From Bilabrum cf. latius (lineage: Eukaryota), in assembly GCA_965178125.1 (NCBI GenBank), contig OZ237749.1, positions 310,001 to 374,000 on the forward strand: a stretch of 64,000 bases of DNA, in the 5' to 3' direction. Of the stretch, positions 13,780 through 64,000 are shown piece after piece (within the stretch, counting starts at the first letter, position 1; every line of letters starts with the position of its first letter). The position numbers were made by a program, and so were the translations under genes. Below the pieces are notes generated by a model, which worked only from the letters and a program-made list of their open reading frames with translations, had not been told where the DNA came from and ran no database searches.

Positions 13780-13789
13780 TTATATATAA

Positions 13790-14639: not shown

Positions 14640-14686
14640 ACTATATATTAATAATAATAATAATAGTATTATTAAAATTCAACAAT

Positions 14687-15034: not shown

Positions 15035-15075
15035 ATCTATAATAATTAAAAGTAAAATAATTATTATAATAAAAC

Positions 15076-16745: not shown

Positions 16746-19229
16746 TCAGATCTCCTTGGCAGACGCCCCCTCTATCTCCTTCCTCTCCGCTTCGGTGATG
16801 CCCTTGCCGCCCAAATGGGCCGTCAGGAACGCTTCCGCGCGGGCGAGGAAATCCACCTTGTTTTCTGGGCGGGCAAACCCATGGCCCTCGTCCTCATACA
16901 GAACGTAGCGCGTCTCAATCCCGTGGCCGCGAAGCGCCTCGGCGATCTGGTCTGACTCTGCCTTCTTGACGCGCGGGTCATGCTACCCCTGCACGATCAG
17001 CAGGGGGCTCTTCATGCTACCGGCGTGGAACACTGGGCTGATCTTCTTGTTGAACTCCTCGTCGTTCTCAACGTCCCCAACGCGCAGCGCCAGCTGCTTC
17101 TTCATGGGTGCCCACCATGGAGGGATGCTCTCCAAGAGGGTCTTGGCGTGCGACGGGCCCACGATATCGACACCGCAGGCGTACAGGTCGGGCGTGAATG
17201 CCAGACCAGCCAAAACTGCGTAGCCTCCATACGAGCCCCCAAATATGCCAACTTTGCCGGCGGTTGTCACACCGGCACCCACGGCCCAGCTCACTGCGTC
17301 CGTCAGGTCGTGCTGCATCTTCCCCTGGCCCCATTCCCTGTTCCCAGCGTGCAGGAATTTCTTCCCGAAACCCGTAGATCCCCTAAAGTTCACCTGCAAT
17401 ACGTGGAACCCGCGACTGGCTAGCCACTGGCAATACGGCGAGTACCCAAATGAGTCCCGGGCCCATGGACCGCCGTGCGGCAGCAGCACCATGGGCTGCG
17501 CGGCGCCTCCCTCCGAGTCCGAGTCCAACTTGAGCGCAGCAACGGCGTCAGCATCCCCTTCCGATTCCTCGGAAATCGCCTTGTTCAGCGCCTCCTCCAG
17601 CCCGCTGCCGTGGGCAGGGGTCAGGTAAGAGGGCAAGAGAAAGCCGTCACGCGCTCGGAGCACGAGCGGCTTGGGGCTCGGCAGGGTCCACTCGGCCAAG
17701 TCCGGCCTGTCGACAAACAGCTTCTCCACCATGCATGACTCGGCCACACGCGCCTTGGCGGTATCGAAGTCGTCGGCGCCTCCCCCCGGCGCCTCCGAGG
17801 CGGCCTTTGCGGGCGCGTGGATGATGTAGTACTGGGTGGCTCCGCTGGGCGGGGCATCTGCAAGGATCCACACCCGCTGGTCCGTGGAGCGCGACACCAC
17901 GTGGGCGTCCCCTTTTGCAGTGTTCAGCACTGCCTGCCAGATGCCGGCCAGGTGGGTGTCCCCGGACAGGATCGACCACTCGGGGCGCAAGTACTCCGCG
18001 GAAACCGCTTCAACCTCCCTGGTCTCCTCGTTTAGAACGACCTGCCCCACGTCGCACTTCTCGGCCTCGAACAGCACGGCAGTGGGCTTGCCCAGCTGGC
18101 CAACGCCGTCCGGAATCGAAACCAAGCCGCCCGCTGCGGATCCGGAGCCGGAACTGGCCCCACCCTCCGCATGAACGGCTGCTCCCGCCCCATCTCCCTC
18201 GAAATCCACGCTGACCACCCGCTGCAGATCGCTGCCTACTGTTGACTCGGCGATTACGCCCTTGCCGTCTGCACGCACGGCAACGATGCCACCCTCCTCG
18301 CCGAATGGCAGCCTGCCAAAGTCCTTCCAACCCGCGGTGGGCCCCACAGGCAGACGGAGGCGGTTGCTGCCGGCGGCTGCGGCCTCTTCCTCCGTCTCCT
18401 CCGGTTCTGGGATGTCCCAGCCTACGCTGCCGATGGGGGCGGCCATCTCCGCCGGCCTCCACCTCAGGATCGTGTCGCCGCTCGCGTTGTCCATCGCAGT
18501 CGCTGCGACAACCCTGAAGTCATCCTTGGAGGCGTGCCATGCGACCACGTCGCCCGGGTTCAGGGTATCCAGCTCCAGGGCCCCCGTCTTCAGGTCGAGC
18601 CTGTACACGTCAGCGCGCTGGCGACTCCGGAGGTTCAGCCCGATCAGCGCCTCGCTCGGTTTGGCTCGGCTGAGCATGAGATTCGAGGCGCGAACGCCCT
18701 GAAATGGGGTGAGATCGCGAGCAGCCCTGGATTTTGACGGCGCATTCACATCCACGGACCATAAGTGCCACACCTCGTCACCGTTCGTGTCCTGCATGTA
18801 CAGCACGGATCGCGAGTCCTTGGCCCAGTAGTGAGCCCGGATGCCTCGCTTCTGGTCATCAGTGAGCCGTTCCTTTTTATCCCATTCCACGCCGTCTGAT
18901 CCGCGCGGTGCCATCCAGACATTCATGACATCCTTGCCGTCCCCTGTTGGCGCGAGCCAAGAGATCCATCGCCCGTTCGGACTTACCCTCGCTTGCTGCC
19001 TCTCTGGGTTTCCAAGCAAAACTTGATGCGGAATCAGGCCTGGCTTGGAGTTTAAGGGCTCACTGGCCTTGCCCTCAGCTGCTGACGCCGCCATCGCGAT
19101 CTTGCTCGTTTCAGATCTAGCAGACACGAACACGGACTCTACTGAAACTACGCCCAGCAGAGAATAACTAATACAAACAAAGGCCAAAGCAAAGCTCCAA
19201 ACCGGGGAAGCTGAACGCTTTGTATGCAT
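16746..19229 (-). CDS. S9 family (prolyl oligopeptidase/acylaminoacyl) peptidase
   Basis: HGGPW and GGSYGG. The catalytic Asp (HDPRV) and His (DEGHG) lie after the TAG at 16983; TGA stop. Start is ATG 19229 or 19094. Confidence 0.92.
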
Positions 19230-19338
19230 TCTGCACCAAGTAAGCGGCGATAAATTATCGGATTTATATTCAAGAGTATTTTCGAACGCTATAATTGTGC
19301 ACGAAACCGAAAAATTATGAAATACACAGAGCGCAGCA

Positions 19339-20208
19339 ATGGAATATCTTGTACAGGTATTAGAGCACCCTAATCCTGCGCCAATATTTGCGGTTGGGGT
19401 GCTAGTCGCTGCAGTCTCCGTAGGAGCACTCAAGGTGATGCCCATGTTGCCGTGGTTGGGCATCGATGATGACGACGAGAATGACGAGAGCACTGACGCT
19501 GCTAGCACAAACAACCCGGAGAAAAAGAATGGCGATCAAGTGAAGGTCACAGGCGGCGGACTGGATGACGACGGTAGCGACGCATCTGAGACGGCAGCGG
19601 GAGAAAAAGAATCTACTTTACAATCAGCCAATGCCGAAGTAGGCAGCCACAATGCTTCCATTGAAGATTCTTCTTAGACCAGCGAATAGGATAGTAGTAA
19701 GCTCGCAAAGAAATCGAAAGCGAAGAAGCCGGAGGACCAGACAGACAACGAAATTCTGCAAATGTCTGCCGATGACGAAGAAAAATATATCGATGCGATG
19801 CGAAGACTGATGCCGTACACGGATGAGGCGACAATACGAGCCGAGTATGCCCGCGCAAAGGCCATTAGCGCAGACTAGGCGAGGAAGCATGGGTTGGAAG
19901 GCGCGGTGAGCCAGGCCCAGTCCAGCATGCAGGGTAATTCTGCCATGGTACGAGGGGCCCTGGACACGCTCGTGATTCTGGCCGTGGCGGGTGCAGCGCT
20001 TTTCTTTTTGATGCGGGACAAGGTGGTAACCCTTGACGGCTTGCTCGACTTCGCGAAGCCCTATTTCCCTCGCGAGCTCGCTACGGTGCTCGGCAACATC
20101 GACCCGCACGGCGGGGGCGACGAGCAGGAGGGGGTTGGTGTGGGCGGTGTCGAGAGCCTTGCTGAGGTAACGGCTGTGCCTGGGATCGGCACAGGCGAAG
20201 AATTGTGA
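19339..20208 (+). CDS. Hypothetical membrane protein (289 aa)
   Basis: Track ORFs 19339-19677 and 19894-20208 join over three TAGs; two hydrophobic segments; TGA stop. Confidence 0.7.
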
Positions 20209-20763
20209 TCGGCTGCTAGTCGTCACGTTTGTTGAAGATGACGTACTGCAGTCCATTCCGCTCTTCTCGTACCATGTAGCCTAGACAGATTGTTGCCGCA
20301 CCACGCGGGTGCCAGTGCACCAGAAATGAACCAAGTTTTAAATGGAAACTATTTGACATCGCATAAAATGCATCAGAGCCGTATGCTCGCCGTTGGGAAG
20401 CTTTGGACACTTCCCGGATCGGATCAAACTAGCGATTCCGGTTTAACACCTGCGAACTTTTCCGCGTTCCCTTTCCAGCACCACTTTTTCGCCTCTGGAA
20501 GTCTAGAGGGAGCAAGCTCGCAGGCAGGCGAGTTCACTCCATCTAACACTTTTGCACTTTACAAGTTAAGGCTTGGTCCTTTGGTCGTATTTTGACCAGA
20601 AAACTACTCAGCAGACTCTTTGCTGAGAAGCGCTCGAGGCTCCTCCGGACAGGGAGGGCCCGGGCGAATAAAGCTAGGAAACTAGCTCCGTGTTTAGCGG
20701 GGCATCTCCTAATTCTACACCTCCCGCTTCCTGCTTCAAAGAAGCAGGTGCGGGTTTGGAAAG

Positions 20764-23700
20764 ATGGAGCCCACTCGTGACTGCAGCCCTAACAGGATCA
20801 TGGTGTAGTCAAATCTTCCGGCGCTAGCGTCCCCCTTTGCCCCGACTAGGTAGCAAGGGGGGCTCGCAGGGGAGACTTGGAAGTTCCCAGCCAAGCAATC
20901 GCCCGCGTAGGCATCGGGTGGACGAACCATTGTCGAGATCGGTGGCAGAAAGTTCTGGGTTTTTCACTCCTTTGGGATCAGCGACGTTGGTCCCGAAGTC
21001 AGCTCGTGCGCTTTCACAGGTGAGACGCGAGATGAAGCATTGGTTGATGCTGATGCTTTCTCTTTGGCTGCTTCGATTGTTGCTGCTTCGTCCACGACAC
21101 TGGGCCAAGACCGTTCCTCTGCCACCTGTGGACATTCCTTGACTGCCAATGGGCGAAATGATCGTTTGTTGCCTAGCAAAAGCTCACGTTGCGTGCTGCG
21201 CCCTTCTCGTGGGGCATGGCTCGGTCTGTGTGGCGGAGAACGGGCGTTCCAGCCAGGCAGAGGACCCGACCTCGGCGCCGAGACAGACATAGAGATTGAG
21301 AGAGATTTGCTGCTGCCGTTGCCTGGTTGTTCCGACTAGAGCGCGCGTGATTGCGCCGAGGTGTCAAGCGCGCGTCGTTGGATTCTGCCCGACCGTGCCA
21401 GTGCCGGCAGGTCCGATTTGTCCCAAGTTGCACACCAGAGTCGAGAGCCACGCACCACCGTCTCTCACTCCCGTCGCTTCTGGCACCCAACGCAGGTGCG
21501 GCACGCTTTTAAGGACATCGACGCCCCGGCCACGGGACCCGCTGCGGGCGTCACCAGCGGCTGTCGCAAGAGCGGCGGCTAGCGCAATCAAGGAGCCACG
21601 GGAGGGCGAGCTGCATCGTCTTCTTCTTCCTCTTTTGGCTCACAGGTCCCCAGCGATGAACTGAATGCTCATGTCGTAAAATCATACCCGTCCGTTGGTT
21701 TGCGCCTCACCGCCCAGCTTCGATTGATCGAGCCGCATGCCGGCAGGCGCGGGCTGTACCCATGCGGCGACCAGTCGTGCCAGTGCCTCGGCAACGTGTA
21801 CCTGCACATGGGTGCGGCAGGGCAGGCGCTGGAGCTCGAGATCGGCCTAGAGCAGGACGAGTCTCCAGGGAACAATGGTGGGAGAGGGGGCCTATCGGAC
21901 GACCAGGTCAGGGCCGTGGAGCGATTCCAGCGCACGCAGCCCACCGTGGATCTCTTCTACAACGGCCTCGGCTCCCAGAACTCAGAGGTGGTGGAGCTGC
22001 CGCCCGCGGCTAGGCCCACCTGGATGCCTCACGCGGCTTCCGATCGGAGCATGCCTCATCTGTCCCTGGCGCAGGGCCGCTGGGTGCTGCGGTTCACCGC
22101 CCCCAAGCCCACGAACGGAAGCCTGGCGCAATGCCGGATCCGACAGGAGAATGACGTCATTCTGACGGGCGGGTTCGATGTCCGCACCAAACCTGCTGAA
22201 TGGATCCTGGTGCACGCTGCTGGGGACAACGGGGCTCGACCGGCCGGCATGGGTGCGGGTCGGGAGGCATCGTCGGAGGCTGCTCGCAGGCTCGTGGTGC
22301 AGGCAGCCCGGGCACAGCACCGCATGGCGGGGACCACGGCCTCGCGTCGGGCGGCCCTCCGCGTGTGCATCAAGGACGTGATTGAGGCTGCGCCCGTGGG
22401 TGCATCGCACGATAGTGCACGTCCGGCGGGCGCATCGCACGGTGGTGCAGTGCCAACGATCAGCAAGGCGTCGATCAGCGACATGCCGGCGACTTTGGCC
22501 GGAAGCTCGGCTTCTTCATCTTCTTCATCGTCGTCATCATCAAGCCAGGCCGCCTCTTCGACTGCGACTGCGGCTGTGGCTGCTAGCGCACAATCGTCTA
22601 CCCCAGCATCTGGTGTCCGGGTGTTTGTCCGGCTAGGAAACCGCACTCAGGCCAACTCTGTGCTCCAGGGATTCCGAGTCCTAAGGGCCGAGGCAAATGC
22701 ATCGCACTGTGGTGCAGATGCTGCCCCCAAGACGGGGGGGAGCAAGCGCCGCAAGCGAGGCGCGGGTGCAGGCGCAGGCGACGCAGCTGCCTCACTGGAG
22801 GCCGACGCTGCGATGCTGGCGTCACAGTGCAGCGTGACGGCACTGACATCTGGCGCTACGAACAGTGAACTGGCCCGGTGGCTGCACGTGTCCTTCTTGT
22901 GTTCCCTCAACAAGGTACGGGCAGAGGAGGCGCACCTCGCCGCCGTGCCAGCTCCCGTGGATCCCCTCTTCGCCCCTGTGTTTGCGCAACGGGAGGACGG
23001 AGTGCTGGGAGGGGCAACACGAGACGAAGAAATATCGGTTGCTGCTGCTGCTGCTATCGGTGAGCATGCTACCGGTGTGACTAGTGCATCAGCTGGAGCT
23101 GTGCCCATGGAGAGTGGCGACGAGGACGGGGAGGATCAGGAGGCTGTGGGCGCTCTGCTCATGTCCAGCGGAGCGGGTGCATCGCACGATGGTGCATGGA
23201 CCCGGGCACGACAGCCAGTGCCCCAGGTCGTGGCCCGCCCTGGGATGAAGCGGTCTAGGGGGCTAGCCCTTGAAGATGACGTGCGGGTGCAGGCGGAGGC
23301 GGAGTGCACCGAAGCGGTTGCTGCCCTCGTGTCGGGAGGGTCATCCCAGGACAGGCAGATCCTCGATGCACCGGCTGCCAAGAGGGCCAGAGTGGTCGGC
23401 CCAGGGGTAGAGATCGGATTAGAGATCGGATCGCAAGTTTGTGCGATGCCACGGTCTGAGTCAGGCCTGCAGGTCGTGCTGCCGCTCGGAGGTGCAGTGC
23501 TGCAGCAGCCGCAGGAGCATCTGAGGCAACTGCTCTGTTGCGAGCAAGAGCACGCGGCGGGCGCGCAAGACCATGACGAAAGGAGTGTCCCTCTTCCGGT
23601 TTTCGAGGGATCGGGGGCCCCTTGGGGCATGCTTCTATCGACCCCAACCCCAACTGCCAGCGGCGCGGGTGCGTATGCTGCAGCTGTTCCGCGACGGATC

Positions 23701-24309
23701 AGCAGCAGTGTGGACGGTTGCAACCGCTCCACGAGTTCGTCACCCTCCACCGTGCAGCTGCCCATCGACGGGAGCATGCGCCGATTGGGCGCCGTCCGTG
23801 GATCCGGAGCCGGGTCTACGCAGGGGTGGCTGAGCGACTGCTCCGAGGCGAGCGAGTGTGACGAGTGCGACTCGCTGCCTCGTTCTCCGCGGAGGGCTGA
23901 GGAGGAGGAGCAGCAGCAAGACGGGCGTCGGCAGCCTGCGATGGCGGAGGACGTCAGAGGTGCGGGTCATAATCAGGATGAGGAGGAGGCCACGACGCCG
24001 ATCGCCGCGATTCCTGCGGGCAAGTACGGCGAAGCAGCGCAGATGCAGATGCCGTTCAGAAGCTCGTTCGGGGGGCAGCTGCTGCCCAGTCGAAGTGTGT
24101 CGAGATTCGCGTCGTTCGGCGGAGGCTGGGAGGACTACTGCCAGTAGGACATGCAGGATGAAGGCGCGGCAGGTATGCCTCCCGCAGAGGCCTTAGCCAG
24201 GCTGTCCTCATTGCAAGCGTGTGGGATGCGGCGCGACTACAGTAGTGGGAGCTTTAGCAGCGTGCTGAGTGGCGGCATGAAGCCTCGCTCTAGATTCAGC
24301 TTTGATTGA
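20764..24309 (+). CDS. Large low-complexity hypothetical protein; probable intron 21496-21645
   Basis: Phase-0 GT..AG intron with a pyrimidine tract links the 20764 frame to track ORF 21700-24147. Continues over TAG to TGA 24309. Confidence 0.6.
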
Positions 24310-24464
24310 AACGGTTGGCATGAAGCCTCTCGCTCTAGATTCAACTTTGATTGAAACGGTTGCCAGCAGTGGCATTGACACGACCCTTCTCACCGACATC
24401 AAAGTCATAGATGCAAGCGATCCTCCCCAGAGAGTACATGCCACACATAAACTCAGCGTCCACG

Positions 24465-25670
24465 TCATCCCAGATGCACCGCAGTCACGTGTGTCTTGAG
24501 ATTGCTTGCCCGCCCGAAGCTCTTCCCGCACACGCTGCACTCGTGCTTGCGCTCCCCCAGATGCACTACGGACATGTGCGTCTTCAGATTGTCTGCCCGC
24601 CCGAAGCTCTTCCCGCACACGCTGCACTCGTGCTTGCGCTCCCCACCATGCACTACGTACAAGTGCGTCTTCAGATTGCTTGCCCGCCCGAAGCTCTTCC
24701 CGCACACGCTGCACTCGTGCTTGCGCTCCCCCAGATGCACTACGGACATGTGCGTCTTCAGATTGTCTGCCCGCCCGAAGCTCTTCCCGCACACGCTGCA
24801 CTCGTGCTTGCGCTCCCCCAGATGCACTACGGACATGTGCGTCTTGAGATGGCCTGCCTGCCCGAAGCTCTTCCCGCACACGCTGCACTCGTGCTTGCGC
24901 TCCCCCAGATGCACTACGGACATGTGAGTCTTGAGATTGCCTGCCTGCCCGAAGCTCTTCCCGCACACGCTGCACTCGTGCTTGCGCTCCCCACCATGCA
25001 TTACGTACAAGTGCGTCTTCAGATTGTCTGCCCGCCCGAAGCTCTTCCCGCACACGCTGCACTCGTGCTTGCGCTCCCCCAGATGCACTACGGACATGTG
25101 AGTCTTCAGATTGTCTGCCCGCCCGAAGCTCTTCCCGCACACGCTGCACTCGTGCTTGCGCTCCCCCAGATGCACTACGGACATGTGAGTCTTGAGATGA
25201 CCTGCCCGCCCGAAGCTCTTCCCGCACACGCTGCACTCGTGCTTGCGCTCCCCCAGATGCACCACGGACATGTGAGTCTTGAGATTGCTTGCCCGCCCGA
25301 AGCTCTTCCCGCACACGCTGCACTCATGCATCTTTTTCCCAGCGCCCGCCGCTGCCTCTGCTCGCCTCCTCTTCTTGTCACTTCCACCCGATGGAGGACT
25401 GTCTGTACTCCTGCTGCGTTTCTACCCAGTCTATGAACATGCTTGGTCCTTCACTCCTTCGGCTCGCAGCTGCAGCAGAACTGGTCGTTGCGATTGGGCT
25501 CGATCCCGTTTAGCGCTTAGCTTGCTTCGAGGACGACTCGCAAATACACTACTAGATGAGGAAAAAACCGAGCCGTTACCCACATCGTGCCAGTCTTCAT
25601 CGCTGTCCCCACTCTCATTGCTGTCGCTGAGAAGATCGATCACATCGGAATCCGGCGATGCTTGCGCCAT
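24465..25670 (-). CDS. C2H2 zinc-finger protein with 10 near-identical fingers
   Basis: Ten HECSVCGKSFGxAxxLKTHxxxxHxGERK units (87 bp). The N-terminal region (VIDLL, acidic stretch, KKRRR) joins over two TAGs; TGA stop. Confidence 0.9.
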
Positions 25671-26115
25671 CACTGCAGTCAATGCTTGCACTTATTACTG
25701 TGACAGATGTATTGGATCGGTACGGACCAGCCAAGTACTCAAACGGATACGCCTGAAGGGGGTTGCGAGTTTGCGCTCTCTAAGCGCCTTGAATGTATCA
25801 CCGAGCCAAGCTGCTTGGAACGAGCCCAACCAACCAATTAATAATTCTTGCCGAACCCCACAGGTTCTTTGCGGAGTCCTGTTCAGCTCTAGAGAAAGAG
25901 AAGTACGTATCGACGATTCTCTTCTTCTTCACGAATACTCAGCTCGCAAGTAAACAAGATTCCAATCGTATCCTATCACCGTGGTACGCTATAACTTACC
26001 CACGCGCCACACGGTAATGCCAGGCTCGCAAAGCCCCGCATCAGTCAGGCGCCTCGTTTGATATCCCCATGCTGCCATCTTGCACACCACCACCAGCGTG
26101 CTCGCCAACCCCGCC

Positions 26116-28242
26116 TTAAGATACAGACCCATTTCCCCCTTCGATGGTGACCCGGGCCATGTCCTCCCTCTCATTGCCCTCCTCATGCTCCCCTACAATA
26201 AGCCCGTGATCCCCAGAGGCCAGCACCGCACCACCGCGGGCCTACTTCCGGTTTGGATCATCACATTCCCTCAAATCTGCAGCTGCTCTACGGGGCCCTG
26301 TTCCCCGGCCCTGGACCTCCCCCTATCCCGGCACAGCCCCTGAGCCTGCCATATCAGCACCTCGTGATGCATGCTCACCTGCGCCATATCCACTGTGTCC
26401 GGCGGCTCCTGCCCCCGCCCCCAATGCGTCGCCATCGTCACACTGGTCCGCACGGCGCGCAAATGCCAATGCCGATGAATCGGCGGTGCCCCGAGACCTG
26501 ATAGGCCGGTGCAGCCTGCCAGCGTCATAGTTGCCGTCATGGCCCCCCTGCTGCTTCTCATCGTCCTCGGCAGCCTCCCACGACAGGCTGTGGGGCGGAG
26601 AGGCATCGGTGCCGGGCGCTCGAATCGACCTAGGACGAGACATGTCCCCACCATGGCCACTGGAATCGGAGCCATCGCCGAGGTGTTGTTGTTCTCTGTC
26701 CCCCAAAGGATCCTCTTCTTCAGCTCGACCCTTGCGAGACTTGCCCTCACCAGCACCAGCACCAGCACCAGCACCAGCACCAGCACCAGCACCAGCACCT
26801 GCACCTGCACCTGCACCTGCACCTGCACCTACGCCCTTTAGGGGTGCAAAGCTCCCTGTCATCTCCTTCGACCCGCTGCCTGCGGAACTACGGCGCCGCG
26901 CATTCCCGCCCGACGGAGCGGTGCCGTAGGCCATCGCACCTGCGACTGCCAGCACCCCGACTGCCGCACCGCTGTTGGTCCACAGTGGGTACGACTGAAG
27001 CATGGTCGCACCTAGGTCCGAACCCGTCATGCTCGGTCCCGCCCCTGCCCCTGCCGCAGTGGCAGATGCAGCGTCCTCCGAATCGCCAGCCTCGCCTGCA
27101 CCCTCAGCCTGCCCGTCTCCTCCTCCCGCACCGTCCCCGGCCCCAGAGCCAGAGCCAGAGTCACCCCCGAACACCCCGCCGAGCGACTGGAACATACCCA
27201 TGCCCAGCACCAGCAGCGACAGCATCACAAGGAACAGCTGGGCCCTGGACTGTGCCAGCGCTCTGCCCTCGTCCACGCCGGCAGCGGCCAAGGAACCTTC
27301 ACGAACCTCGTCCTCCAGTCTATGTTTCTGGGATGCTCTCGCCCCTCTCTCTTGCCGCGGTGAGGGGAGGGGAAGCGGCATGGGTGTCGCAGCCGCCTGC
27401 TCCATTTCGTCCTCGAGCAAGTGCTCCTGCTCCTCTTCCCGCTCCTCTTCTATGCAGGCCTCCAGCAGCAGCTGCAGGGAGTCGTCCTCCGCGCGAGCTG
27501 CCCGCGGTGGGGCCTCTCTGGCATGTGCACCGGACCCGTGGCCCCAGTGCGCAACGGCTTCCCCCTCCCCTTCACCTTCCCCCTCTTCACCTTCCTCGCC
27601 GCTGCTCCTGGCAGCGCCACCATCTTCATCTTCATCGCAGCGCTCCTCCTCGAACAGCTCGATTCCACCGCCGATACCACCGGCATGGGCGCCGCTTGAC
27701 GTTCCGGCCCCGCGATGGGAGGCGCGCAGCTCGGCGGCCCGCTGCCTGGATTCGCGAGCAGCCCGAGCAGTGAGCATCTCTGGGGCATCCGCGGCGTGCT
27801 CGTTCGTCTGCTCGCCGTACATGTCTGTCAGGCTTCTGGCTGCAGCGGCGTGGTCTCGACCGGTCCGGACCTCCTGCTCGGTGCGGATTGCTCCGTCCAC
27901 CCAGCCGTCAAGCTCGCGATCCTCTACAAACTGTATCCGAACTCGAGGCCTGGGCGGATCAGCATCCTGTCCGTCCTACTCTTCGACCAACACGCCGGCT
28001 GCCTACCTGTTTCGAAGGACGGCACGACGTCTGTACGACCTAGCGAAGGGCGTCCCTTGCACAACCACCAGTCCGAGGCCCATCACTGCAGCTGACACTG
28101 CCCAAGGCTGCCGAATAGTGCTACCCGGCACTACAGCTAGTTGCGTAAGCCATCGGACAATTCGGGTGGACAAATTTTGCTCCCCGGGTGGTTGTGCTTG
28201 GCCGGATTCCCTCGGTTGCGATCGGTCTGCGCTAGGATCCAT
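26116..28242 (-). CDS. Low-complexity Gly/Ala/Glu-rich membrane protein
   Basis: Track ORFs 28003-28242 and 26323-27900 are in frame over TAGs; ends at TAA 26116; two hydrophobic segments. Confidence 0.6.
26748..26830. repeat. Hexanucleotide microsatellite (CACCAG)n(CACCTG)n encoding a Gly-Ala tract
   Basis: Directly visible in the sequence. Confidence 0.9.
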
Positions 28243-28466
28243 CTCTTGACCCCAGATTCAACTACCAAGCCTCAAAGTATGCCCCATATAAGGGAACATA
28301 TGTGTTCACTGTAAGGTAATCGATTACTTCAATGAAATACAAACTATAGTGCTACAAAGCAGCAGATTTGTAGGTCGGTACAATCAAACGTAGGGAACTC
28401 GAATCGAACGTTCGTAATTGGATCCACGCCTCGATCTACAACACGGCTTGTTTAGCCTCCCGAATC

Positions 28467-36601: not shown

Positions 36602-36753
36602 TTCTGAGCCACGCTGGCTGCAAGAAGGTGAAGCGAGCTCGTCGTGTTTCCTGGAATTCGACCTGTAACGTGCGAATATCGCCGCGCAAATTTGGTTCCG
36701 TAAATCGAGCCGGCTCGACTAAAAAAAGTTAGCATTGCGATTACTGACCATAA

Positions 36754-47431: not shown

Positions 47432-48546
47432 GTGTCGACTAGCAGCAGGATTGGCGGGGGGAGGGTTGATCCGACGAGTGAGAGAAGGGAGAGGACCGAG
47501 AGAGTAGGAGATAGGAGGCAGGTGTCGCTGGAGGGTCATAGTCGGGATCCTCAGCTATGCATGGTCATGCTGCCGTTACAGAGGTATGCCATTCTGCCAA
47601 ACGAGGCTCCTTTAGATAGTGATGCATTCGTCGAGCACGCGCCCCCGGTCCCGTGGACCCGCTGGGCTTCACCCCGAACGACTGGTTCTTCACCGGTCCA
47701 CATGAATGCGGTATTCATCTGACACTACGAATGTAAACGCCACTTTCCCAATGCACACGACTGGCCTCGTCGCTGCATGGCTTCCTGTTCCTGTTCCCCG
47801 CCATAGGGACCGTGTGATTTTTACACCCTGCATTGCCACTTTGGCCCTATCCTCTCAGCTTGCACGCGCCGGTGCCAGGGTCCATTGGTGCTGGTGGTAG
47901 CTCGTGAGAGAATGCAGGATATTCTGGATCGTCATTGGATCCAAACTCTCTCGACTTCCAGCCTCCAGACGCGTCCACCAGCTCAGAGTGATCGAAGCCG
48001 TCGCACTCCGACACGGCTGCACGATCCCTGGATTCTTCCACAAGTCCTGCAGCTCGACCACACTTGCCATGAGAAACCTAGCCGCTGGCAGGGTTAGTGC
48101 CATGGATTGCGCTGATAGTTCTTTGCCGCTGTGGCTTGGGTTACTTGCATCTAGTCACATCAGCCTAAGGGCGTGGTCGTGGCGTTCGCTATGCTGCTTC
48201 GTCGAAGCCTAATAGCTTTGCAGAGCGTTGGAATTGGGGCTGTTCATTTTTGGATTGGAGAGTGTTTGGAATGAATTCCGTGCAGACAAAAAGCAAACAA
48301 GCGTTTTTTGCAAAGACGACAAGACTAACTTGGAGTCACGAGCCGTGCTGTTGAAAAGTTCCTGCCATTGATCATCGTGCAGCAAGAATCTCTTCACCCC
48401 GGCAGCAGGGCATGATTACAACTGCAGAGATCTCTATAGCCTAAGCATGCGGCAGTCCAATTGACGTCCAGTTGCACAGGTCGTCTGCGCACCAAACCGA
48501 CCGACACCGCAGGATATCGCATGGATCCGATCCGAATGTAAAGCCA

Positions 48547-54108: not shown

Positions 54109-54876
54109 CTAGAACTAAATGACTGCTGGTAATCAATTAAATGGTCATGGTATGCCTGCACGGTGAACAAGCACAAGATACAGAATCCTGGATTGGATCC
54201 AGTCGTGCAACGGTTGAATCACGGCTTGGCACAGCTAATCGGATTTATAGAGTCATGATTATAGTACATTTTCTGTCCAGAGCACTACATTAGCGCAATT
54301 TCATGCCACATACACGAAGACTAAACCAGCACAGGCGGGCCAACAGCGGATTGCGACTTTAGCACGTTCTTCCAACAGAATGTCCATGCTTGACAAAATC
54401 AAGGCCAAGGCATTCGTTTTGTACCCCAAAGAGCTATTGGCAGAATAAGCTCACTAATTCAGGATGCAGCAAGCTTGTTGTACATGATTTGAGCTGCTTT
54501 CTACGTGGCCGGCGTTCTTCCAGATCTAGCAAAATACACACCGCGGCGCAGGCAAACACAATACCGCTGTATCCACTATACGCAACGCCTCAAGGAATTG
54601 CAGTGAATCGAAGGCCAGATAGGGAATCGTGTCCGCGTTTTGCAACGGAATCGATTCAGCTGGCTTTTAGGTCGCATGCGGCGGTCGCTGTCGGCCCGAG
54701 TCGCACCGTGACGCATGCAGCAAGTAGCCCGGTCCCATCCCGTTCGTCTGGTACATGGTGCAGGCTTTCTTTCACGACAGAGCATTTTGCAGTCGTTTCA
54801 TATTACTAGTGTACCTTGAAAATGCTGGAGCCGAGTTGCAATGTGTCTTGCTTGCTCGTGGCCAAGTCAGCCAGCA

Positions 54877-57047
54877 TCACCGAAAATCAACGAGCTGGTA
54901 ATCCATTGCGTGCCTTGGAAGCATCACCGCACCTTGGCCCCCTTTGCTCCTCCTGGACCCGCCCGCCCCGCCTTTCCTGTGCACCGCCACGTGCGGCGTG
55001 GTCTCGTACAGCAGCACTCCGTCAGGCACTGCCACCGCCCTGTGATCCGGCCTGGCCTTCACCGCCGACATCCCCTCGGGGTCTATCAGTCGAAACACCC
55101 CATAGGCCATCCGGGGGTCGCAAGGCGCCGCCACGATTGCCATTGCCTCGGGCAGCAGCTGCTGGAACCCCACGTGAGTCCTCACATCGTACGAGCTCAT
55201 GAAACACCTCTGGCTGGGGTGCGTATGAATCCAGCCGCACTGTATCAAGTCGTGCTCTATGCAGTAGTCGAACAGGTCCTCCTCGTTCAGCATTTCCACG
55301 GAATCTGGGTGCCCTTTCTGCTTTGGTACCAGGACATGCGTGATGACCAGGTCGCCCTTGGAGGACACCCCGCCGCAAAGCACGCCGCACGTCTCGATGC
55401 CCCTGGGAGGGACCCTGTTGTTGCTATCTGCCAGTGCTACGAAGGCATCCACCAGTCCCGCGGGCACGTGTGTTCGCCTGAGCGCTGGCTCTCCCCTGCC
55501 CCTGGGTGGGGCCCCCAGGAGACCCCTGATGACCCCCCCCTGGTCCAGCCAAGGCGGCGACCCCTTCCCGCTAGGGTAGGCATCCCGCCATCCTATCACA
55601 CCGTTCGAGGGGTTTGGCACCGTGCTTGGTACCACAACTGCTGGAACGCCCTCAACAGCTCCCAGCTTGGCCCTCCGTATGACCTCCGCCGCCGTAAGGG
55701 AGCTGCTGCTGTCGTAGGTCAGCTGCTCAGCGGATGGGGCCTCGGGAAGCGACCCGTAGCTGATCCGACTCAACGCCGCCTCCGTGGTGGCTGCACTGTC
55801 GTGCATTGCACTCCCAGTTGCAACCTTATGGTAGGAAGGAAGAGCGAGGGCGCCTCCGGACTGAGGCCCGGCACCACCATGCGATGCACCCGAGCCTGGG
55901 TAAGCGATGCTGCTGCCGGGCCCGGCGTAGGCTGGCTGTGCCGGCGCTCCCCGAATCCCCGATGCAGATCCTCGCGAAAAGCCGGCGCCAGTCACACCAC
56001 CGCCCACAGCACTAGCATACGAAGGCAGACCGGCAGAGTCTCCGACGGTGCTGCTGCCGCTGCCCGCGCGGCCCTCTCCAGCCTACCTAACGGAAGCAGC
56101 CGCGAGAGCTGACCGCCAGTCTGACTCACCCCCCGTGACAGGCGCCGCGCCTGTTGCGGAACCTCCCGACGGGGGCGCGCATGCACCGGGGGTCGCCTCC
56201 CCAGTGCCACCCCCTGCGCCGCTCGACATCTTGCTCCAATCAATGTGCACGGTGCCGGCGGCAGATGGTCCTGAACCGCCTGTCGCTGCTGTAGACGATT
56301 GCGGATCTGATGCGCGAGCGCCAGAGGAGGCCGGGGGCATTGGGGTCGGAGCTGCCCACTTGTTTACTACAGGCGCGATGAGTGCCATGGGGATGGAGCC
56401 AGGTGCTGCCAGCTGCGGCACGCCATCGTCGTCGTCTTCCAGGGAGTCTAGAAGCGCCTCTGCAGATAATTTTGCGGGTTCAGAGCTTTTTCTAGAGTCT
56501 GTACTCCCTGCAACCGGCTCGGAAGGTACTGGTTTCGAATCTGCGGAGGCTGCCGCGGCATGCTTGTCAGCAACAGCGGCCTGAGGGGGTGCGTGCTTCG
56601 CCTGGATGGAAAGCCGAAATTTTTCCTTGAGCTGCTCGAGTTCTCCGACAGCTTTGTCGGCCTGTTTTGCACACCATTCCCATTTGCTCTTATTCTAAGG
56701 TAGCTGGCATCCCTTGTGTCGGTGTATCGTTCGAGTGCAGAAGCTGCGGAGGGTGGCTAGGTTGGATGGCAGCCCACAGGTATGTTGGAGCGAGAAACAG
56801 CAGTATCCCACACCAGACGTGGTAAAATCCACCCTAAAGATTCTTACGTTGCAAAGCGTAGGTAAAACACGTACGCTAATGGATAGTTCGAGGCGAGCTG
56901 ATAGTTGCGCGCCTGCAAGAACTGCTATTTGCTTATCTTGACCAGGCTAGAGAAGGGATGGTCATTCGGCTTTGATATCATGAAAGCATTAGCTTGCTTC
57001 GAAAGCCCTTTGACAAAGGTGCTAAGCTCTTTCGCCTGGTCACTCAT
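54877..57047 (-). CDS. STAMBP: AMSH/STAMBP-like JAMM deubiquitinase; intron near 56744-56847
   Basis: IETCGVL, GWIHTHPSQRCFMSSYD, LPEAMAIV. N-terminal MIT-like AYVFYLRF segment joined over TAGs; TGA stop. Confidence 0.88.
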
Positions 57048-57287
57048 TCCGACGACTTGTCCGGGAAAACACTTGCACGCAGGCTGAATTGCCCGCAGTA
57101 CTGCAACACTGCAGTGATTGAGGCGTAGAGTGTAGTACACGCGCCAAAAAACGACCTCAACTAATTCAACAACGCGGGTAGATGCAACGCAACCCCCTGG
57201 AACGGCCGCCTGAATCCCTAGTCGTACTGGCTCCGAATTCGTGGGAAAAGAGTTGAGAAGCGCACCATATCAAGCCCGTTATTGAGA

Positions 57288-58130
57288 ATGAAAAGGTGTT
57301 CAGGTCTTGCAAAGAGTCTTATCATGCACACTGGCTGGGTCGTGTTGAGACCAACGGTTGCTAATAGAGCACTGTACCAGAATCAGCTTTGTTGCTGCAG
57401 CTCTGCTGCAACGAGCAGCATCAATGAGGAGGCTGAAACGGCTGATACAGGGAGAACCGTACGAAAGGAATCCATAGACACATAGAAAATTGAATCATCG
57501 GATGGAGTAGACATGTCCAGGTACCCAAAGGTCACTCCAGAGCGATATGCGAGGCTTGCAGCTCTGTCATCACCAGCCTTTTCGTCTGACGAAGAACGAA
57601 GACGACTGGTCGATGAAATTGTGCGAATTGATCATGCTGGAGAGTACGGTGCCGTGCGAATATACGAGGGGCAGGCTTGGGGGCTGAAAGCTCGGGGTGG
57701 CGATGACCGGCACACGTCAGAGCTTTTGTAGCACATGAAAGAGCAGGAGCAGCAGCACTTGGAAGCTCTCTCTGGCCTCATTACCGATAGAAGGGCTAGA
57801 CCAACTGCTTTGCTCCCAGTTTGGCACCTAGCGGGATTTGCCCTCGGCGCGGGGACTGCCTTGATGGGCCGAGAGGCAGCGATGGCTTGCACCGTGGCAG
57901 TCGAGGAAGCGATCGGGGAGCACTACAACGACCAGATCAGGGAGCTTCTGCAGCGTGGATACGACGAAGAGGAGCTCTGCAAGGTGCTCCAGATCAACCG
58001 AGACGAGGAGCTCGAGCACCACGACACTGCGCTTGAAGAGGGGGCTGAGCGAGCCCCTGGATTCAACGTGCTCAAGCAAGCGATCAAGGCAGGGTGCAAG
58101 GTGGCGATCGAGGTCACGAAACGGGTTTGA
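57288..58130 (+). CDS. COQ7: 5-demethoxyubiquinone hydroxylase
   Basis: RIDHAGEYGAVRIYEGQ, LL[TAG]HMKEQE..H, RPTALLPVW, AMACTVAVE, HYNDQ, RDEELEH; TGA stop. Confidence 0.95.
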
Positions 58131-58333
58131 ACCACCAATCCATGTCCAGGTGTCAGGTTTTTCATCAACGCGATTGCTTTCCTCGATTGGACGACAAGCA
58201 CTGCTCCGGTTGTGCACCGGTGACCAGTGCAGGCTGCAATGCTTGCAGGCTCCCAGTCACGAGGCGGTGTTGCAGCTGTGTACAGGTACATGACTTATAG
58301 GTAAATGCACGCTTGAGAGATTAAGAATGAGGA

Positions 58334-59142
58334 TCAGTCTTTCCCCGTTCTAGTTTTTGCACGTTCCGCATCATCCTTGGCCTCGGTGCCGTCCAGCTTC
58401 ACCGCTTCAATGCTGAGCAAGTGCATCTCAAAGGGGCCTTCCTACTTGTCTGAAATTAGCAGCGCGATGGATGTGAGCTGCCCCACATCTGTCACTGGTG
58501 CTGTGTCGATAGTCCTGCCGCGAAATGTAGGTGTCATGGCTCCCAGGGGCACCACGGTTGTGATTTCCTCCCCTTTCTTACCAACATCGAGCGAATACCG
58601 CTGACGAGTTCCTCCTGGAAGACTGCCACCCCCACAGTACAGCTGGTAGCGCTTTCCATCGCCAACTGCAGTTACTCGCAATGCGTCGCAACCTGCCTCG
58701 GATGCAGTCTCTATTTCTTCCTTTGGCAAGTCATCGCACTTGATGTGCGCAAACCCTCCATAATTTTCGAGGGAACTGCGGGAGATTCTGGCCAGATCGT
58801 ACGGAAATGGGTGTTCACTGGCCCGAATGCTCAGGTGACGTGGCGCTCGTCGCCTAGACTTACACGTGCCCGTAGAATACAAGCTCTGCTTCACTTGCGA
58901 GAGCTTTGCTAGCTGATCGACCTCCCATGACAACATCATCCCTATTGTACCTGCATGAAGGACGGAATGATAGAATGCTGCGAGTGATATCCAGTGAAAG
59001 CAGGCGATCCACCTGCAGTTGCAGTTGGATGCTCTTACCACGAGCTGAAGCCTATGCCAGGCCCAAATAGAGTGATTGCAAGACTTGAAACCCGTGAAAG
59101 CTACGATACTGCTCTTCGAGATACGCATGATGCAGCAGCCAT
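58334..59142 (-). CDS. CIA30/NDUFAF1-family protein, two introns
   Basis: Spliced W..DDVVMGGRS, SLENYGGFA, GDGKRY, PTFRGR, LISDK[TAG]EGPF; TGA stop. Confidence 0.85.
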
Positions 59143-59274
59143 ACCCGATAACTCTTTACAGATGACCTTGTATTGATGTGCACTCATCACTGTTGCTTCG
59201 GACGGATCGGGAGTGCCAGTGGGAGATCCAGCTGACTAGAACCTATGAACATGCACCTTCATATCCGACACAAT

Positions 59275-62200: not shown

Positions 62201-64000
62201 AAGCGGTCCTTGGACCTCGACTGTTCCAAGCGACGGCGCAGCTCCTGCTCCTGTTTCTTGGCCCTCTGCTTCTTGCCCATGCCCGGGCGGCGCACCTTGG
62301 TTCTAGCTCGCTTGGCGCTGCGCACGGCCTCGGTTGCAATCTCCATCGCAGCCTCCATGCGGCCTGCAGCTGCAGTGCCCGGCTGAAACACGTCGAACGC
62401 GTCTGCTTCCACCTCTTCCCGCACCATGTCAAGGCGCGACTCGCACTGCTCAAGACGCACGACAGCACCCTGCTCCGTCGAACGCATCGACTGGGCCTTG
62501 GAGCGAGCCCCCTCTCGCAACATCTTTAGTACCTCTGCAGAAGCCTTGCTCCACTGCTCGCAGCCTTCGGATAGCTTCCTGAGGTGCGCCACCGACTCTT
62601 GGTACTCTTGCATGCGGTTCTTCCTCTCTGTCATTGGAACGAATGCGATCACAGAGGCGCGCCTGCCACGGCGTCGCCTCGGCGGGGACGATGAGCGCGG
62701 GCCCGAGAGCGCCATGCCGCCAGCCTTGCCGAATCCATGACCCGCGCCGCCGCCGCCATTACGCTCCAATGCGTGGGCAGCGGCAGCCGCAGCACCAGGT
62801 CGGCGGCCCTCCGCCGCTAGCACTGCCACAAAGTGTGCCTCTGCCGCCGCAGCGCGTGCTCTCCTTGCCTCCGCGATGTCCTTCTGCGCCTGTGCTACGC
62901 GCTCTCTCCACTTGTCTGGAGTTGCCAGCGCCTCGCGGATCTTGCCCCTGTCGGGGGCATCGCTCATGGCGCGGCTTCTGCTGCCGCCGCTCTTGGCAGC
63001 CGCCGCGCGGCCGACCGCCTGCAAGAGGCCGGATTTTACCGCCTCCTCGAAGGCATGGGTGGCTCTCTCAGTGTCCCTGGCCGCGCGGTTGATCTTCTCT
63101 TCTGCTGTTTCCGCGTCGCTCTTCAGCCTCTGAAGCTCAAGGAACAGTTCTGCCCGTCTGCTCTCCACCTCTTCGGTGTGGGCAGTCACCGCCTCCTCCG
63201 CCTCGAAGACGTCCTCTAGCGCGCGATCGAGGGCCTGCTTCAGCCTAGCGAGTGCGTCTTTCTCGTGCGAGGTGACCGCAGGGGTGATGCTGGCCCTGGA
63301 GGCATCGTCCCCAAGCCCTACAGGCGACTCTCCGGGAGGAGGTGCGCCCAAGTGAACAGCGTTATGCTGCGTACGCTCGGCCTGCACAACGGCCTTCTCG
63401 GCCTTGTACTCTGCCTCGAGCTCCGCCTCTTGCTGTGCCTCGAGGACAGCGCGCGCCAGCTCCCTCTCAGGCATCTCTGCCGTGGTCACGCTCCGAGCCG
63501 CAGTGTTCAGCGCGGTCACGGCGGTGGCACCGGCTTCCTTCAGGCGATCGTAGCGCTGAAACTGCGTGACTAGCCTCCGCCTGCACAGCGACATGGTCTG
63601 CGCGGTGCGCAAAAGTTCTATCCTGTGCTGCAGCCTGCCGTACAACACCTCGGCCCGGGCCACTGCGTCCACGGCTGGCGGCACTGACGCCATAAATTCC
63701 TGCTGCAAGGCCCTGTCGAGAGCGCCTGCGCCAGCTAAGCCAGTCATCTTCTCGATGCTGCGGGTACGGGCGAGGCCCCCGGAGCCGGAGAGCCCGCCCG
63801 TGCTGAGCTGTCCTCCTCCTCCCGATCCACCGCTCGCCTTGCTGCTCCCGTCATCATCACCGTCCCCGCCGTTGGCAGCGACATCCCCATCGCCGAATCC
63901 AAGCCCGCCGGACCTGCCCCCAGAGATACCCACCTCTTCCTCGGCCAGCTGCACGGTGGCCATCACGAGGTCGATGTCATCGTCCTCGTCGCTCCACTCT
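59275..64000 (-). CDS. Large coiled-coil/low-complexity protein, 5' end outside the window
   Basis: Track ORFs 60514-63966, 59869-60318 and 59299-59751 are in one frame over TAGs; TGA stop at 59275. Confidence 0.75.

What the first reader, a model, noticed from the sequence alone, without database searches (positions are those of the whole stretch)
16746..64000. Host nuclear genome uses an uncoupled code: UAG = sense (probably Gln), UAA/UGA = stop
Seen: every host gene I could reconstruct has in-frame TAGs and no internal TAA or TGA; genes end at TGA, and one at TAA (26116). The S9 peptidase would lose its catalytic Asp and His, COQ7 its diiron ligands, and the CDPK its C-lobe if TAG stopped. 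Known: TAG sits where homologs have Gln in CIA30 SDKQEGPF (58442-44), COQ7 I/L-Q-x-M (57729-31) and the GxYQD cysteine-rich repeat (43268-70). UAA and UAG nearly always change together in nuclear codes; separate reassignment is known from few lineages (Iotanema, one rhizarian, some ciliates). Inference: a GC-rich, virophage-bearing, stramenopile-like host with this code may be an unreported case.
Basis: partly seen in the sequence, partly recalled or inferred. Interest (0 to 1): 0.95.

Follow-up and report, generated by a model that had tools for sequence, protein, structure and literature searches.

The report
Protist genome reads UAG as glutamine
This stretch of a microbial eukaryote's nuclear DNA, and the virophage inserted in it, use the stop codon UAG as a glutamine codon while UAA and UGA still end genes, a rare kind of genetic-code change apparently not yet reported for this lineage.

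Summary
In 13 host reading-frame segments (11,703 codons) there are 75 in-frame TAG, 0 TAA and 0 TGA, against about 29 TAA and 230 TGA expected from the other frames. Pfam domains (S9 peptidase, kinase, COQ7, CIA30) run across the TAGs.

Spliced contigs from three other public runs carry 40 of these TAGs unchanged. So they are not assembly errors, not edited and, apart from four, not intronic.

The meaning is glutamine. In 8 comparisons with close relatives where 10 or more of 12 flanking residues agree, the partner is Gln 7 times and Arg once. Human COQ7 also has Gln at that place.

The relatives, known only from metagenomes, have in-frame TAGs too, some at the same sites, so a whole clade shares the code.

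The adjacent 16-kb mavirus-like virophage also uses TAG as sense: 72 in-frame TAG, 0 TAA, 0 TGA in 4,554 codons, and 14 of 18 frames end in TAA.

The tRNA, eRF1 and the taxon could not be examined. The closest named homologue is from Cafeteria, at 32% identity.

This is a new member of the known UAG-only-to-Gln type of code.

The parts
16746..19535 (-). S9 (prolyl-oligopeptidase family) peptidase gene. One in-frame TAG at 16983, just before the catalytic Asp/His region. Ends at TGA 16746.
   Evidence: Pfam PF00326 at 3.9e-41 across the TAG. PDB alignment 5l8s. The ortholog in metagenome locus L001 (75% aa identity) has TAG at the same codon and ends at TGA at the same C-terminus.
28320..31223 (+). 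GH74-like (xyloglucanase-like, Asp-box) secreted protein gene. Nine in-frame TAGs in the part 28470-31220.
   Evidence: PDB 1sqj and 4lgn. 662 homologues found. Relative P0004 has Gln at our TAG 30525 with 10 of 12 flanking residues identical. Fragment P0005 ends exactly before our TAG 30981.
31562..36409 (-). CSC1/OSCA-like membrane protein gene with ten in-frame TAGs.
   Evidence: Homologues carry PF14703; the best named one is from Cafeteria roenbergensis, 32% identity. Relatives at 92-96% identity have Gln at TAGs 35906, 33773, 33734 and 32321, and Glu at 35477. Their called proteins break at our TAGs 35153 and 32051 and at our CAG codon 1005.
38283..40244 (+). CDPK/CaMK-like kinase with EF-hands. 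In-frame TAG at 38997 in the activation segment.
   Evidence: Pfam Pkinase 2.2e-51 plus EF-hand families. PDB alignments. The TAG is kept in a contig piece of runs X5, X6 and X7 with 0 other letters.
43193..47431 (+). Main exon of an FG-GAP / EGF-like repeat protein gene with 11 in-frame TAGs. The intron 42733-43192 precedes it.
   Evidence: Pfam FG-GAP and Ephrin_rec_like. GT..AG joint 42732>43193 in X5 and X7. TAG positions.
48547..53993 (-). Large exon of an unknown 1,800-codon gene with 24 in-frame TAGs.
   Evidence: Frame open only with TAG as sense. X5 contig piece 48287-53993 has 0 other letters. Introns at 53994-54086 and 54155-54453. No Pfam family.
54843..57170 (-). JAB/MPN (AMSH-like) deubiquitinase gene, intron 56744-56847. 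In-frame TAGs at 56695 and 56083.
   Evidence: Pfam PF01398. Spliced contigs in X5, X6 and X7.
57288..58130 (+). COQ7 (5-demethoxyubiquinone hydroxylase) gene. In-frame TAGs at 57483 and 57729. Ends at TGA.
   Evidence: Pfam PF03232 7.1e-63. Human COQ7 (7ssp) has Gln opposite TAG 57729, and the alignment runs to the C-terminus. X5 piece 57280-58775 has 0 other letters.
58334..59155 (-). CIA30 (complex I assembly factor) gene, intron 58776-58863. In-frame TAG at 58442.
   Evidence: Pfam PF08547 across the TAG. Joint and contig piece.
59275..63999 (-). Unknown large gene that runs off the window, with seven in-frame TAGs in a Gln/Pro/Met-rich tail.
   Evidence: No Pfam family.
20713..28257 (.). 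Three further frames with in-frame TAG: 21700-24309 (+, 1 TAG); a C2H2 zinc-finger array 24465-25691 (-, 2 TAGs); 26116-28257 (-, 4 TAGs, the only host frame ending in TAA).
   Evidence: The ortholog of 26116-28257 lies in L001.
1..16140 (.). Integrated mavirus-like virophage element at 29% GC. Its 18 frames also use TAG as sense. They include MCP 3094-5073, penton 5055-6020, putative protease 6345-6920, putative ATPase 6929-8029 and rve-chromo integrase 12210-13385.
   Evidence: Composition. 72 in-frame TAG, 0 TAA, 0 TGA in 4,554 codons. 14 TAA and 4 TGA terminators. Penton matches mavirus 6g41 at 2.4e-24 and PF21507. MCP matches mavirus 6g45 at 2.8e-8. rve PF00665. Inverted repeats 38-155 / 15850-15968.

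Best explanation
The GC-rich part of the window is nuclear DNA of a microbial eukaryote whose cytoplasmic translation reads UAG as glutamine and keeps UAA and UGA as the only stop codons. This is the pattern of NCBI table 15.

TAG makes up about 14% of the Gln codons in host genes. It exchanges with CAG between close relatives by single C/T changes.

The code is shared by a clade of relatives seen only in metagenomes, so it is old and fixed.

The integrated mavirus-like virophage is translated under the same code. Being AT-rich, it has shifted its G-ending Gln codon from CAG (4% of its Gln codons) to TAG (35%).

Shown here: TAG is in frame, is kept in spliced mRNA-derived contigs, corresponds to Gln, and is never a terminator in the frames examined.

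Inferred from the literature, not shown here: decoding by a tRNA-Gln with anticodon CUA, one base away from CUG, together with an eRF1 that has lost UAG recognition but keeps UAA and UGA.
For: 1. Frames. There are 75 in-frame TAG, 0 TAA and 0 TGA in 11,703 host codons, against 80, 29 and 230 expected from the off-frames. Pfam domains span the TAGs.

2. Not an artefact and not editing.
- Contigs of X1 cover the region unspliced and identical.
- Contigs of X5, X6 and X7 (two other studies) lack five or six GT..AG introns.
- X5 pieces with 0 other letters contain 40 of the in-frame TAGs.

3. Gln.
- Relatives at 92-96% identity have Q at our TAGs 168, 879, 892 and 1363 of the CSC1-like protein (10-12 of 12 flanking residues identical).
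- A relative at about 60% identity has Q at GH74 TAG 686 (10/12).
- In the S9 ortholog of L001, two TAGs face our CAG (11/12 each).
- Together that is 7 of 8 strong-context pairs; the eighth is Arg.
- Called proteins of two relatives stop exactly where we have CAG (codon 1005).
- Human COQ7 has Q at the COQ7 site.
- More distant homologues show E,E,E / R,R,Y / K,R, which are all neighbours of Gln and not of Leu.

4. Stops.
- All 31 frames end in TGA or TAA.
- The S9 and COQ7 C-termini coincide with those of homologues at TGA.
- In the AT-rich virophage, where A-ending codons dominate (CAA/CAG = 13.8), TAA is never in frame (0 against 250 expected) and ends 14 of 18 frames.

5. Shared TAG sites in relatives: S9 codon 851, one site in the 19321-20208 frame, and fragment ends at our TAGs GH74-838, TM-419 and TM-1453.
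Against: - No tRNA gene was found in the window or in L001. No whole genome is held. So neither a tRNA-Gln(CUA) nor eRF1 was seen.
- There is no peptide evidence.
- At poorly conserved sites the partners of TAG are varied: A, G, S, K, V, E, N, M and I. Kinase homologues have I or V at the kinase TAG. The two best-populated GH74 columns favour K/R, with Q at 4 of 141 and 0 of 142.
- Comparison of the virophage capsid proteins with mavirus is too distant to say anything.
- TAA as a host terminator rests on one host gene plus the virophage.
- The runs with spliced contigs are not on record as RNA. The tool's own guess for X5 is 'probably DNA'. That they derive from RNA is my inference from the splice joints.
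- The frames were chosen because they are open under this code, so the zero counts of TAA and TGA are partly by construction.
Confidence: 0.86

Rival explanations
1. TAG is a sense codon but encodes an amino acid other than Gln. Candidates are Leu, as in the rhizarian exLh; Glu or Lys, as in one ciliate; or Arg.
For: Kinase homologues have I or V at the TAG site. GH74 columns 71 and 119 are dominated by R and K. Single Arg and Glu partners occur in close relatives. UAG=Leu and UAG=Glu are known elsewhere (PMC5304391 and PMC11687900, passages).
Against: 7 of 8 strong-context comparisons give Gln. Leu, Lys and Glu never appear among those eight, and Arg appears once. The TAG/CAG codon exchange was seen directly twice. 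Human COQ7 has Q. The virophage has almost no CAG (9) but 72 TAG, as expected if TAG replaces CAG under AT pressure.
Confidence: 0.05
2. The code is ambiguous. TAG is usually read through as Gln but also terminates some genes, depending on context, as in Condylostoma or karyorelict ciliates, or by leaky near-cognate readthrough without a dedicated tRNA.
For: Three frames have a TAG within the last 8 codons: 59299, 31583 and 13793. These could be the true ends. Neither tRNA nor eRF1 was seen. Only 31 gene ends were examined, and they were defined by TAA/TGA by construction.
Against: TAG occurs at the off-frame rate throughout long genes (75 observed, 80 expected), up to 24 times in one exon, which leaky readthrough could not sustain. 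About 3 near-terminal TAGs are expected by chance (310 codons at about 0.9%; my arithmetic). The S9 and COQ7 ends match homologues at TGA.
Confidence: 0.07
3. The in-frame TAGs are not translated. They would be assembly or C-to-T errors, sites edited in the mRNA, intronic, or marks of pseudogenes. Alternatively, the GC-rich DNA belongs to a giant virus rather than a nucleus.
For: Four TAGs of one frame do lie in an intron. The runs with spliced contigs are not on record as RNA.
Against: Identical sequence occurs in runs of three studies. Forty TAGs lie inside spliced contig pieces with 0 other letters. TAGs are conserved in relatives from other samples. Pseudogenes would also accumulate TAA and TGA, yet there are 0 where 259 are expected. 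The gene content is cellular: COQ7, CIA30, and a CSC1-like channel with a Cafeteria nuclear ortholog, with GT-AG introns.
Confidence: 0.02

Closest known systems
Iotanema spirale (fornicate) nuclear code: UAG = Gln, UAA and UGA stop (Panek et al. 2017, PMC5304391; passages read)
   Same: Same codon, same amino acid, same retained stops. It was inferred in the same way, from in-frame UAG in conserved genes. The same mechanism was proposed: tRNA-Gln(CUA) arising from the CUG anticodon, plus an eRF1 change.
   Different: A different eukaryotic lineage: here a GC-rich, aerobic organism (COQ7 and a complex I assembly factor are present), with Cafeteria as the closest named relative. Here genomic DNA, introns and an integrated virus are also seen. 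The Iotanema eRF1 change described there (T32G) could not be looked for here.
UAG-only to Gln in ciliates: Protocruzia tuzeti and two phyllopharyngean lineages (McGowan et al. 2024, PMC11687900; passages read); NCBI table 15
   Same: The same uncoupling of UAG from UAA, with Gln as the meaning.
   Different: The gene content and the best homologues give no sign of a ciliate. The genome is GC-rich with long, intron-poor genes. I ran no ciliate-specific test.
Rhizarian exLh: UAG = Leu, UAA and UGA stop (PMC5304391; passages read)
   Same: Only UAG is reassigned, and the organism is a non-ciliate protist known from stray sequence data.
   Different: The amino acid differs. Leu never appears opposite TAG among the 8 strong-context comparisons here.
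Mavirus and endogenous mavirus-like elements of Cafeteria (mavirus capsid structures 6g41 and 6g45; host biology recalled, not from a call)
   Same: Penton and MCP homologous to those of mavirus. An rve integrase, low GC inside a GC-rich host, and terminal inverted repeats.
   Different: Every gene carries in-frame TAG (72 in 4,554 codons). No protein-primed polymerase was found among the 10 of 18 frames scanned with Pfam. No close relative in the viral contig collection, and no homologue in the 5.8-billion-protein set by word search.
TAG-recoded bacteriophages, code 15 (e.g. crAss-like phages, PMC9523058; abstract seen)
   Same: A virus whose genes need TAG read as Gln.
   Different: Going by that abstract, those phages use a code different from that of their host bacteria. 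Here the element matches its host's own code.

Membership tests
Nuclear code with UAG = Gln and UAA/UGA = stop (table 15 type) | In-frame UAG inside conserved protein-coding genes | tested here: met
   Pfam domains span the TAGs in S9, kinase, COQ7 and CIA30. 75 TAG in 11,703 codons.
Nuclear code with UAG = Gln and UAA/UGA = stop (table 15 type) | UAG is present in the mature mRNA (not edited, not spliced out) | tested here: met
   40 in-frame TAGs lie in X5 contig pieces that have 0 other letters and lack the GT..AG introns. That these contigs come from RNA is inferred from the splicing; the runs are not recorded as RNA.
Nuclear code with UAG = Gln and UAA/UGA = stop (table 15 type) | UAG positions correspond to Gln in orthologs | tested here: met
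   7 of 8 strong-context pairs with close relatives are Gln and 1 is Arg. Human COQ7 has Q. Weak-context pairs are mixed.
Nuclear code with UAG = Gln and UAA/UGA = stop (table 15 type) | UAA is never in frame and is used as a terminator | tested here: met
   Host: 0 in frame against 29 expected, and 1 terminator. Virophage: 0 in frame against 250 expected, and 14 of 18 terminators.
Nuclear code with UAG = Gln and UAA/UGA = stop (table 15 type) | UGA is never in frame and is used as a terminator | tested here: met
   Host: 0 in frame against 230 expected, and 12 of 13 terminators. The S9 and COQ7 ends match homologues.
Nuclear code with UAG = Gln and UAA/UGA = stop (table 15 type) | A tRNA-Gln with anticodon CUA | not testable with these tools
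   No tRNA in the window or in L001. No genome is held.
Nuclear code with UAG = Gln and UAA/UGA = stop (table 15 type) | eRF1 N-domain altered so that UAG is not recognised | not testable with these tools
   eRF1 is not in the window, and no genome is held.
Nuclear code with UAG = Gln and UAA/UGA = stop (table 15 type) | Peptides with Gln at UAG | not testable with these tools
   No proteomic data available.
Mavirus-like virophage, endogenous element | Virophage major and minor capsid proteins | tested here: met
   Penton: 6g41 at 2.4e-24, and PF21507 at 29.1 bits against a cut-off of 27. MCP: 6g45 at 2.8e-8; PF22031 only 17.2 bits, below its cut-off.
Mavirus-like virophage, endogenous element | Retroviral-type (rve) integrase and terminal inverted repeats | tested here: met
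   PF00665 at 45.6 bits against a cut-off of 32.6, plus a weak chromodomain match. Inverted repeats 38-155 / 15850-15968, 73-79% complementary.
Mavirus-like virophage, endogenous element | Packaging ATPase and cysteine protease | tested here: inconclusive
   No Pfam family for 6929-8029 or 6345-6920. A Walker-A-like GKSGSGKS and the gene order next to the capsid genes are seen in the translations.
Mavirus-like virophage, endogenous element | Protein-primed DNA polymerase / helicase module | tested here: not met
   None of the 10 frames scanned (of 18) matched such a family. The other 8 short frames were not scanned.

The most novel reading that the evidence does not exclude
A whole, so far undescribed clade of Cafeteria-related (stramenopile-like) protists reassigned UAG alone to glutamine, independently of ciliates and fornicates. 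At least three levels of divergence are visible in metagenomes.

Its virus world has followed. The endogenous mavirus-type virophage now writes a third of its glutamines as TAG. This implies that it, and the giant virus it depends on, can only replicate in hosts with this code. The result would be a code-matched triad of host, giant virus and virophage, and a natural test of whether code change acts as a barrier to viruses.
Probability: 0.45. Interest if true: 0.85.

Novelty: new member of a known kind. Interest (0 to 1): 0.7.

Why it matters
Nuclear codes in which UAG and UAA have different meanings are very few. A 2024 paper lists a rhizarian, Iotanema, Scotinosphaera and some ciliates (passages read). 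Each new independent case tests why the two codons are normally coupled.

This case comes with three useful things. There is genomic DNA. There are relatives at graded distances that share some TAG sites. And there is an integrated virophage whose codon usage has adapted to the code.

It therefore offers material for three questions: dating the change, finding the tRNA and eRF1 changes behind it, and asking whether a code change shapes which viruses can infect a host.

There is also a practical consequence. Standard gene callers cut this clade's genes at TAG. The public protein sets searched here hold its proteins only as fragments that break at our TAG positions.

Tried and rejected
- No whole genome is held for the window, so there was no genome-wide codon inference and no search for tRNA, eRF1 or 18S.
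- ARAGORN found no tRNA in the window or in L001.
- Rfam found nothing in the window or L001 at gathering scores, and nothing in 16100-16750 at E up to 1.
- The virophage MCP had no relative in viral contigs. It also had no hit in the 5.8-billion-protein word search.
- The integrase, penton and MCP alignments to solved structures were too distant to inform the meaning of TAG.
- Alignment A2 had no stretch conserved enough for a metagenome scan. A narrower alignment, A3, was used instead. Of its 12 loci only L001 is a close relative; L002-L012 (34-35% identity) were not used.
- No RNA holder is listed for the stretch.
- Parts of the laid stretch without contig cover in X5-X7 were not interpreted.
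- I considered and rejected Leu (the exLh type) after the close-relative comparisons.
- I considered and rejected a giant-virus origin for the GC-rich DNA, on gene content.
- Taxon: only one named homologue was obtained (Cafeteria, 32% identity). No tree was built, because no taxon-labelled set was available.
- Supplementary files of the papers were closed. The eRF1 alignment of PMC5304391 (Additional file 6) could not be seen.


Full report
**What the window is.** Bases 1 to about 16,140 have 29% GC; the rest has 54-66% GC. Under the standard code the GC-rich part is broken into moderate ORFs. Read with TAG as sense, it opens frames of 929, 967, 1,615, 1,564, 1,861 and more than 1,574 codons. 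Everything below therefore rests on the window, on public protein and metagenome collections, and on public runs.

**Check of the observation.**
- I listed every TAG in 13 host and 18 viral stop-to-stop frames.
- After trimming to exons and likely coding parts, 11,703 host codons hold 75 TAG, 0 TAA and 0 TGA. The two other frames of the same DNA predict 80, 29 and 230. TAG is used as freely as chance allows, and the other two stops are excluded. The frames were picked because they are open, so the zeros are partly by construction.
- Independent of that choice, Pfam domains run straight across the TAGs: Peptidase_S9 (3.9e-41), Pkinase (2.2e-51), COQ7 (7.1e-63) and CIA30 (3.1e-14).
- Alignments to solved structures show that the S9 Asp/His region, the kinase C-lobe and most of COQ7 lie downstream of a TAG.

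**Artefact, editing or introns?**
- One search found runs that hold 54200-59300. I laid four of them on 38900-58899.
- Contigs of X1 cover the stretch collinearly; one piece spans 48049-58899 with 0 other letters.
- Contigs of X5, X6 and X7, which come from two other studies, skip 42733-43192 (GT..AG), 56744-56847, 53994-54086, 54155-54453 and 58776-58863 (CT..AC, that is GT..AG on the gene's strand). X7 also skips 42141-42507. Their pieces stop near gene ends.
- These runs are not recorded as RNA, and the tool guesses 'probably DNA' for X5. I nevertheless read clean removal of canonical introns, on the correct strand, in three runs, as a sign of transcript origin.
- X5 pieces with 0 other letters contain 40 of the in-frame TAGs: kinase 1, FG-GAP gene 10, the 48.5-54 kb gene 24, JAB 2, COQ7 2 and CIA30 1 (positions).
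- TAG therefore stands in the spliced message. Only the first four TAGs of the 42737 frame turned out to be intronic.

**Which amino acid?** Distant homologues gave a mixed picture:

| Site | Residues in distant homologues |
|---|---|
| COQ7 | Q (human COQ7) |
| S9 | A, L, L, L, Q (the last two L from near-identical PDB entries) |
| Kinase | I, V |
| Integrase | S |
| CSC1-like protein, first site | R, R, Y |
| CSC1-like protein, second site | E, E, E |
| GH74-like, column 71 | mostly R (Q in 4 of 141) |
| GH74-like, column 119 | mostly K, then R (Q in 0 of 142) |

Because UAG = Leu is known in a rhizarian (PMC5304391, passages), I looked for close relatives.

The protein collections hold them only as fragments.
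- For the CSC1-like protein, fragments of 92-96% identity show Q at our TAGs 168, 879, 892 and 1363, with 10-12 of 12 flanking residues identical. They show E at 311 (8/12) and an ambiguous I/Q next to a gap at 1384.
- A 71% relative shows R at 879 and Q at 892.
- A relative of the GH74-like protein at about 60% identity reads RFSGNRYNQSRQL where ours reads RFSGNRYN-TAG-SRQL.
- The fragments also end exactly before our TAGs (GH74-838, TM-419, TM-1453). So the relatives have a 'stop' there too.
- Two fragments end exactly before our codon 1005, which is CAG.

A metagenome scan gave locus L001 (7.7 kb). It carries orthologs of four window genes and has its own in-frame TAGs.
- In the S9 ortholog (75% identity), two of its TAGs face our CAG (11/12 flanks each).
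- One TAG is shared with ours (12/12).

Taking only pairs with at least 10 of 12 identical flanks and no gap, 7 of 8 are Gln and 1 is Arg. Leu, Lys and Glu do not occur among those eight. Weak-context pairs are scattered (A, G, S, K, V, E, N, M), as expected for unconstrained sites.

**The stops.**
- TGA ends S9 and COQ7 at the same C-terminal residues as their homologues.
- TAA ends only one host frame.
- The AT-rich insert supplies the stronger test of TAA. In 4,554 codons, where A-ending codons dominate (CAA/CAG 13.8, AAA/AAG 2.8), TAA is never in frame (250 expected). It ends 14 of 18 frames.
- If TAA shared the meaning of TAG, about 25 in-frame TAA would be expected in the host set from the CAA:CAG ratio.

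**The insert.**
- Its penton matches the mavirus minor capsid protein (6g41, 2.4e-24) and Pfam V18-19.
- Its MCP matches the mavirus MCP (6g45, 2.8e-8).
- It has an rve integrase with a weak chromodomain match, and inverted repeats near both ends.
- All but one of its 18 frames carry in-frame TAG. Its Gln codons are 60% CAA, 35% TAG and 4% CAG. This fits TAG having taken over from CAG under AT pressure and is itself an argument for Gln.
- No polymerase module was found among the 10 frames scanned.

**Who is the host?**
- The only named homologue obtained is a Cafeteria roenbergensis/burkhardae CSC1/OSCA-like protein, at 32% identity over 98% of an 801-residue region.
- The virophage is mavirus-like. 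That mavirus infects Cafeteria is recalled knowledge, not from a call.
- COQ7 and CIA30 indicate an aerobic mitochondrion.
- This fits a bicosoecid-related stramenopile but does not prove it.

**Mechanism.** By analogy with the cases in PMC5304391 (passages), the simplest route has two steps. First, a duplicated tRNA-Gln(CUG) mutates to anticodon CUA, which pairs with UAG but not UAA. Second, eRF1 changes so that it spares UAG. Neither molecule could be examined here.

**Known or new?**
- The code type is known. UAG-only to Gln is reported for Iotanema, Protocruzia tuzeti and two phyllopharyngean ciliate lineages (PMC11687900, passages).
- Six full-text searches found no report of it in a stramenopile, bicosoecid or Bigyra. 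They found no paper linking virophages with recoded stops either. I saw the listings and abstracts for these, and read passages only from the two papers named above.
- The runs date from 2025, so a description may be in preparation.

**Verdict.** This is a new lineage, with its virophage, for a known and rare kind of code.

Noticed in passing
window 1-16140: The AT-rich element is a mavirus-like virophage whose genes use TAG as sense. Its Gln codons are 60% CAA, 35% TAG and only 4% CAG. No polymerase module was seen among the 10 of 18 frames scanned.
   Followed up: partly
window 16216-16356 (+) and L001 5522-5662 (-): A 142-nt block is 84% identical between the window and the relative's contig, with changes at every third base. 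It reads as the last exon of a small gene (...QYAHYDES...[12 protein letters not shown], ending in TGA). In the window the virophage lies directly upstream of it, so the insertion may sit in or just before this gene. There was no Rfam match.
   Followed up: partly
window 40234-40900 and 47571-48237: Contig depth in all four runs jumps in these intergenic stretches: about 1,070 and 670 in X1, against about 14 nearby. There are many loose ends and variant letters. They are probably dispersed repeats or mobile elements of the host.
   Followed up: no
window 816-900 and 1560-1644; 955-1164 and 2512-2741: Inside the virophage, an 85-nt block is repeated at 94% identity upstream of two leftward frames. 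There are also arrays with a 20-nt period. An internal copy of the terminal inverted repeat lies at 6214-6337.
   Followed up: no
L001 versus window 16.7-31 kb: Gene order differs between the relatives. In L001, the orthologs of 26116-28257, 19321-20208, S9 and the GH74-like gene lie within 7.7 kb. L001 lacks the 20.7-24.3 kb frame, the zinc-finger array and the virophage.
   Followed up: partly
window 44700-45740: Six near-identical tandem copies of a unit of about 59 codons (Ser/Thr/Pro-rich plus a Cys-containing block) lie inside the FG-GAP/EGF gene. Contigs of the runs join across different numbers of copies.
   Followed up: no
public protein collections (P0004, P0005, P0013, P0015, P0159-P0162, P0170, P0171): Proteins of this clade are present in the public sets only as pieces cut at TAG by standard-code gene calling. 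Several samples and sources (JGI, ENA, Logan) hold them.
   Followed up: partly
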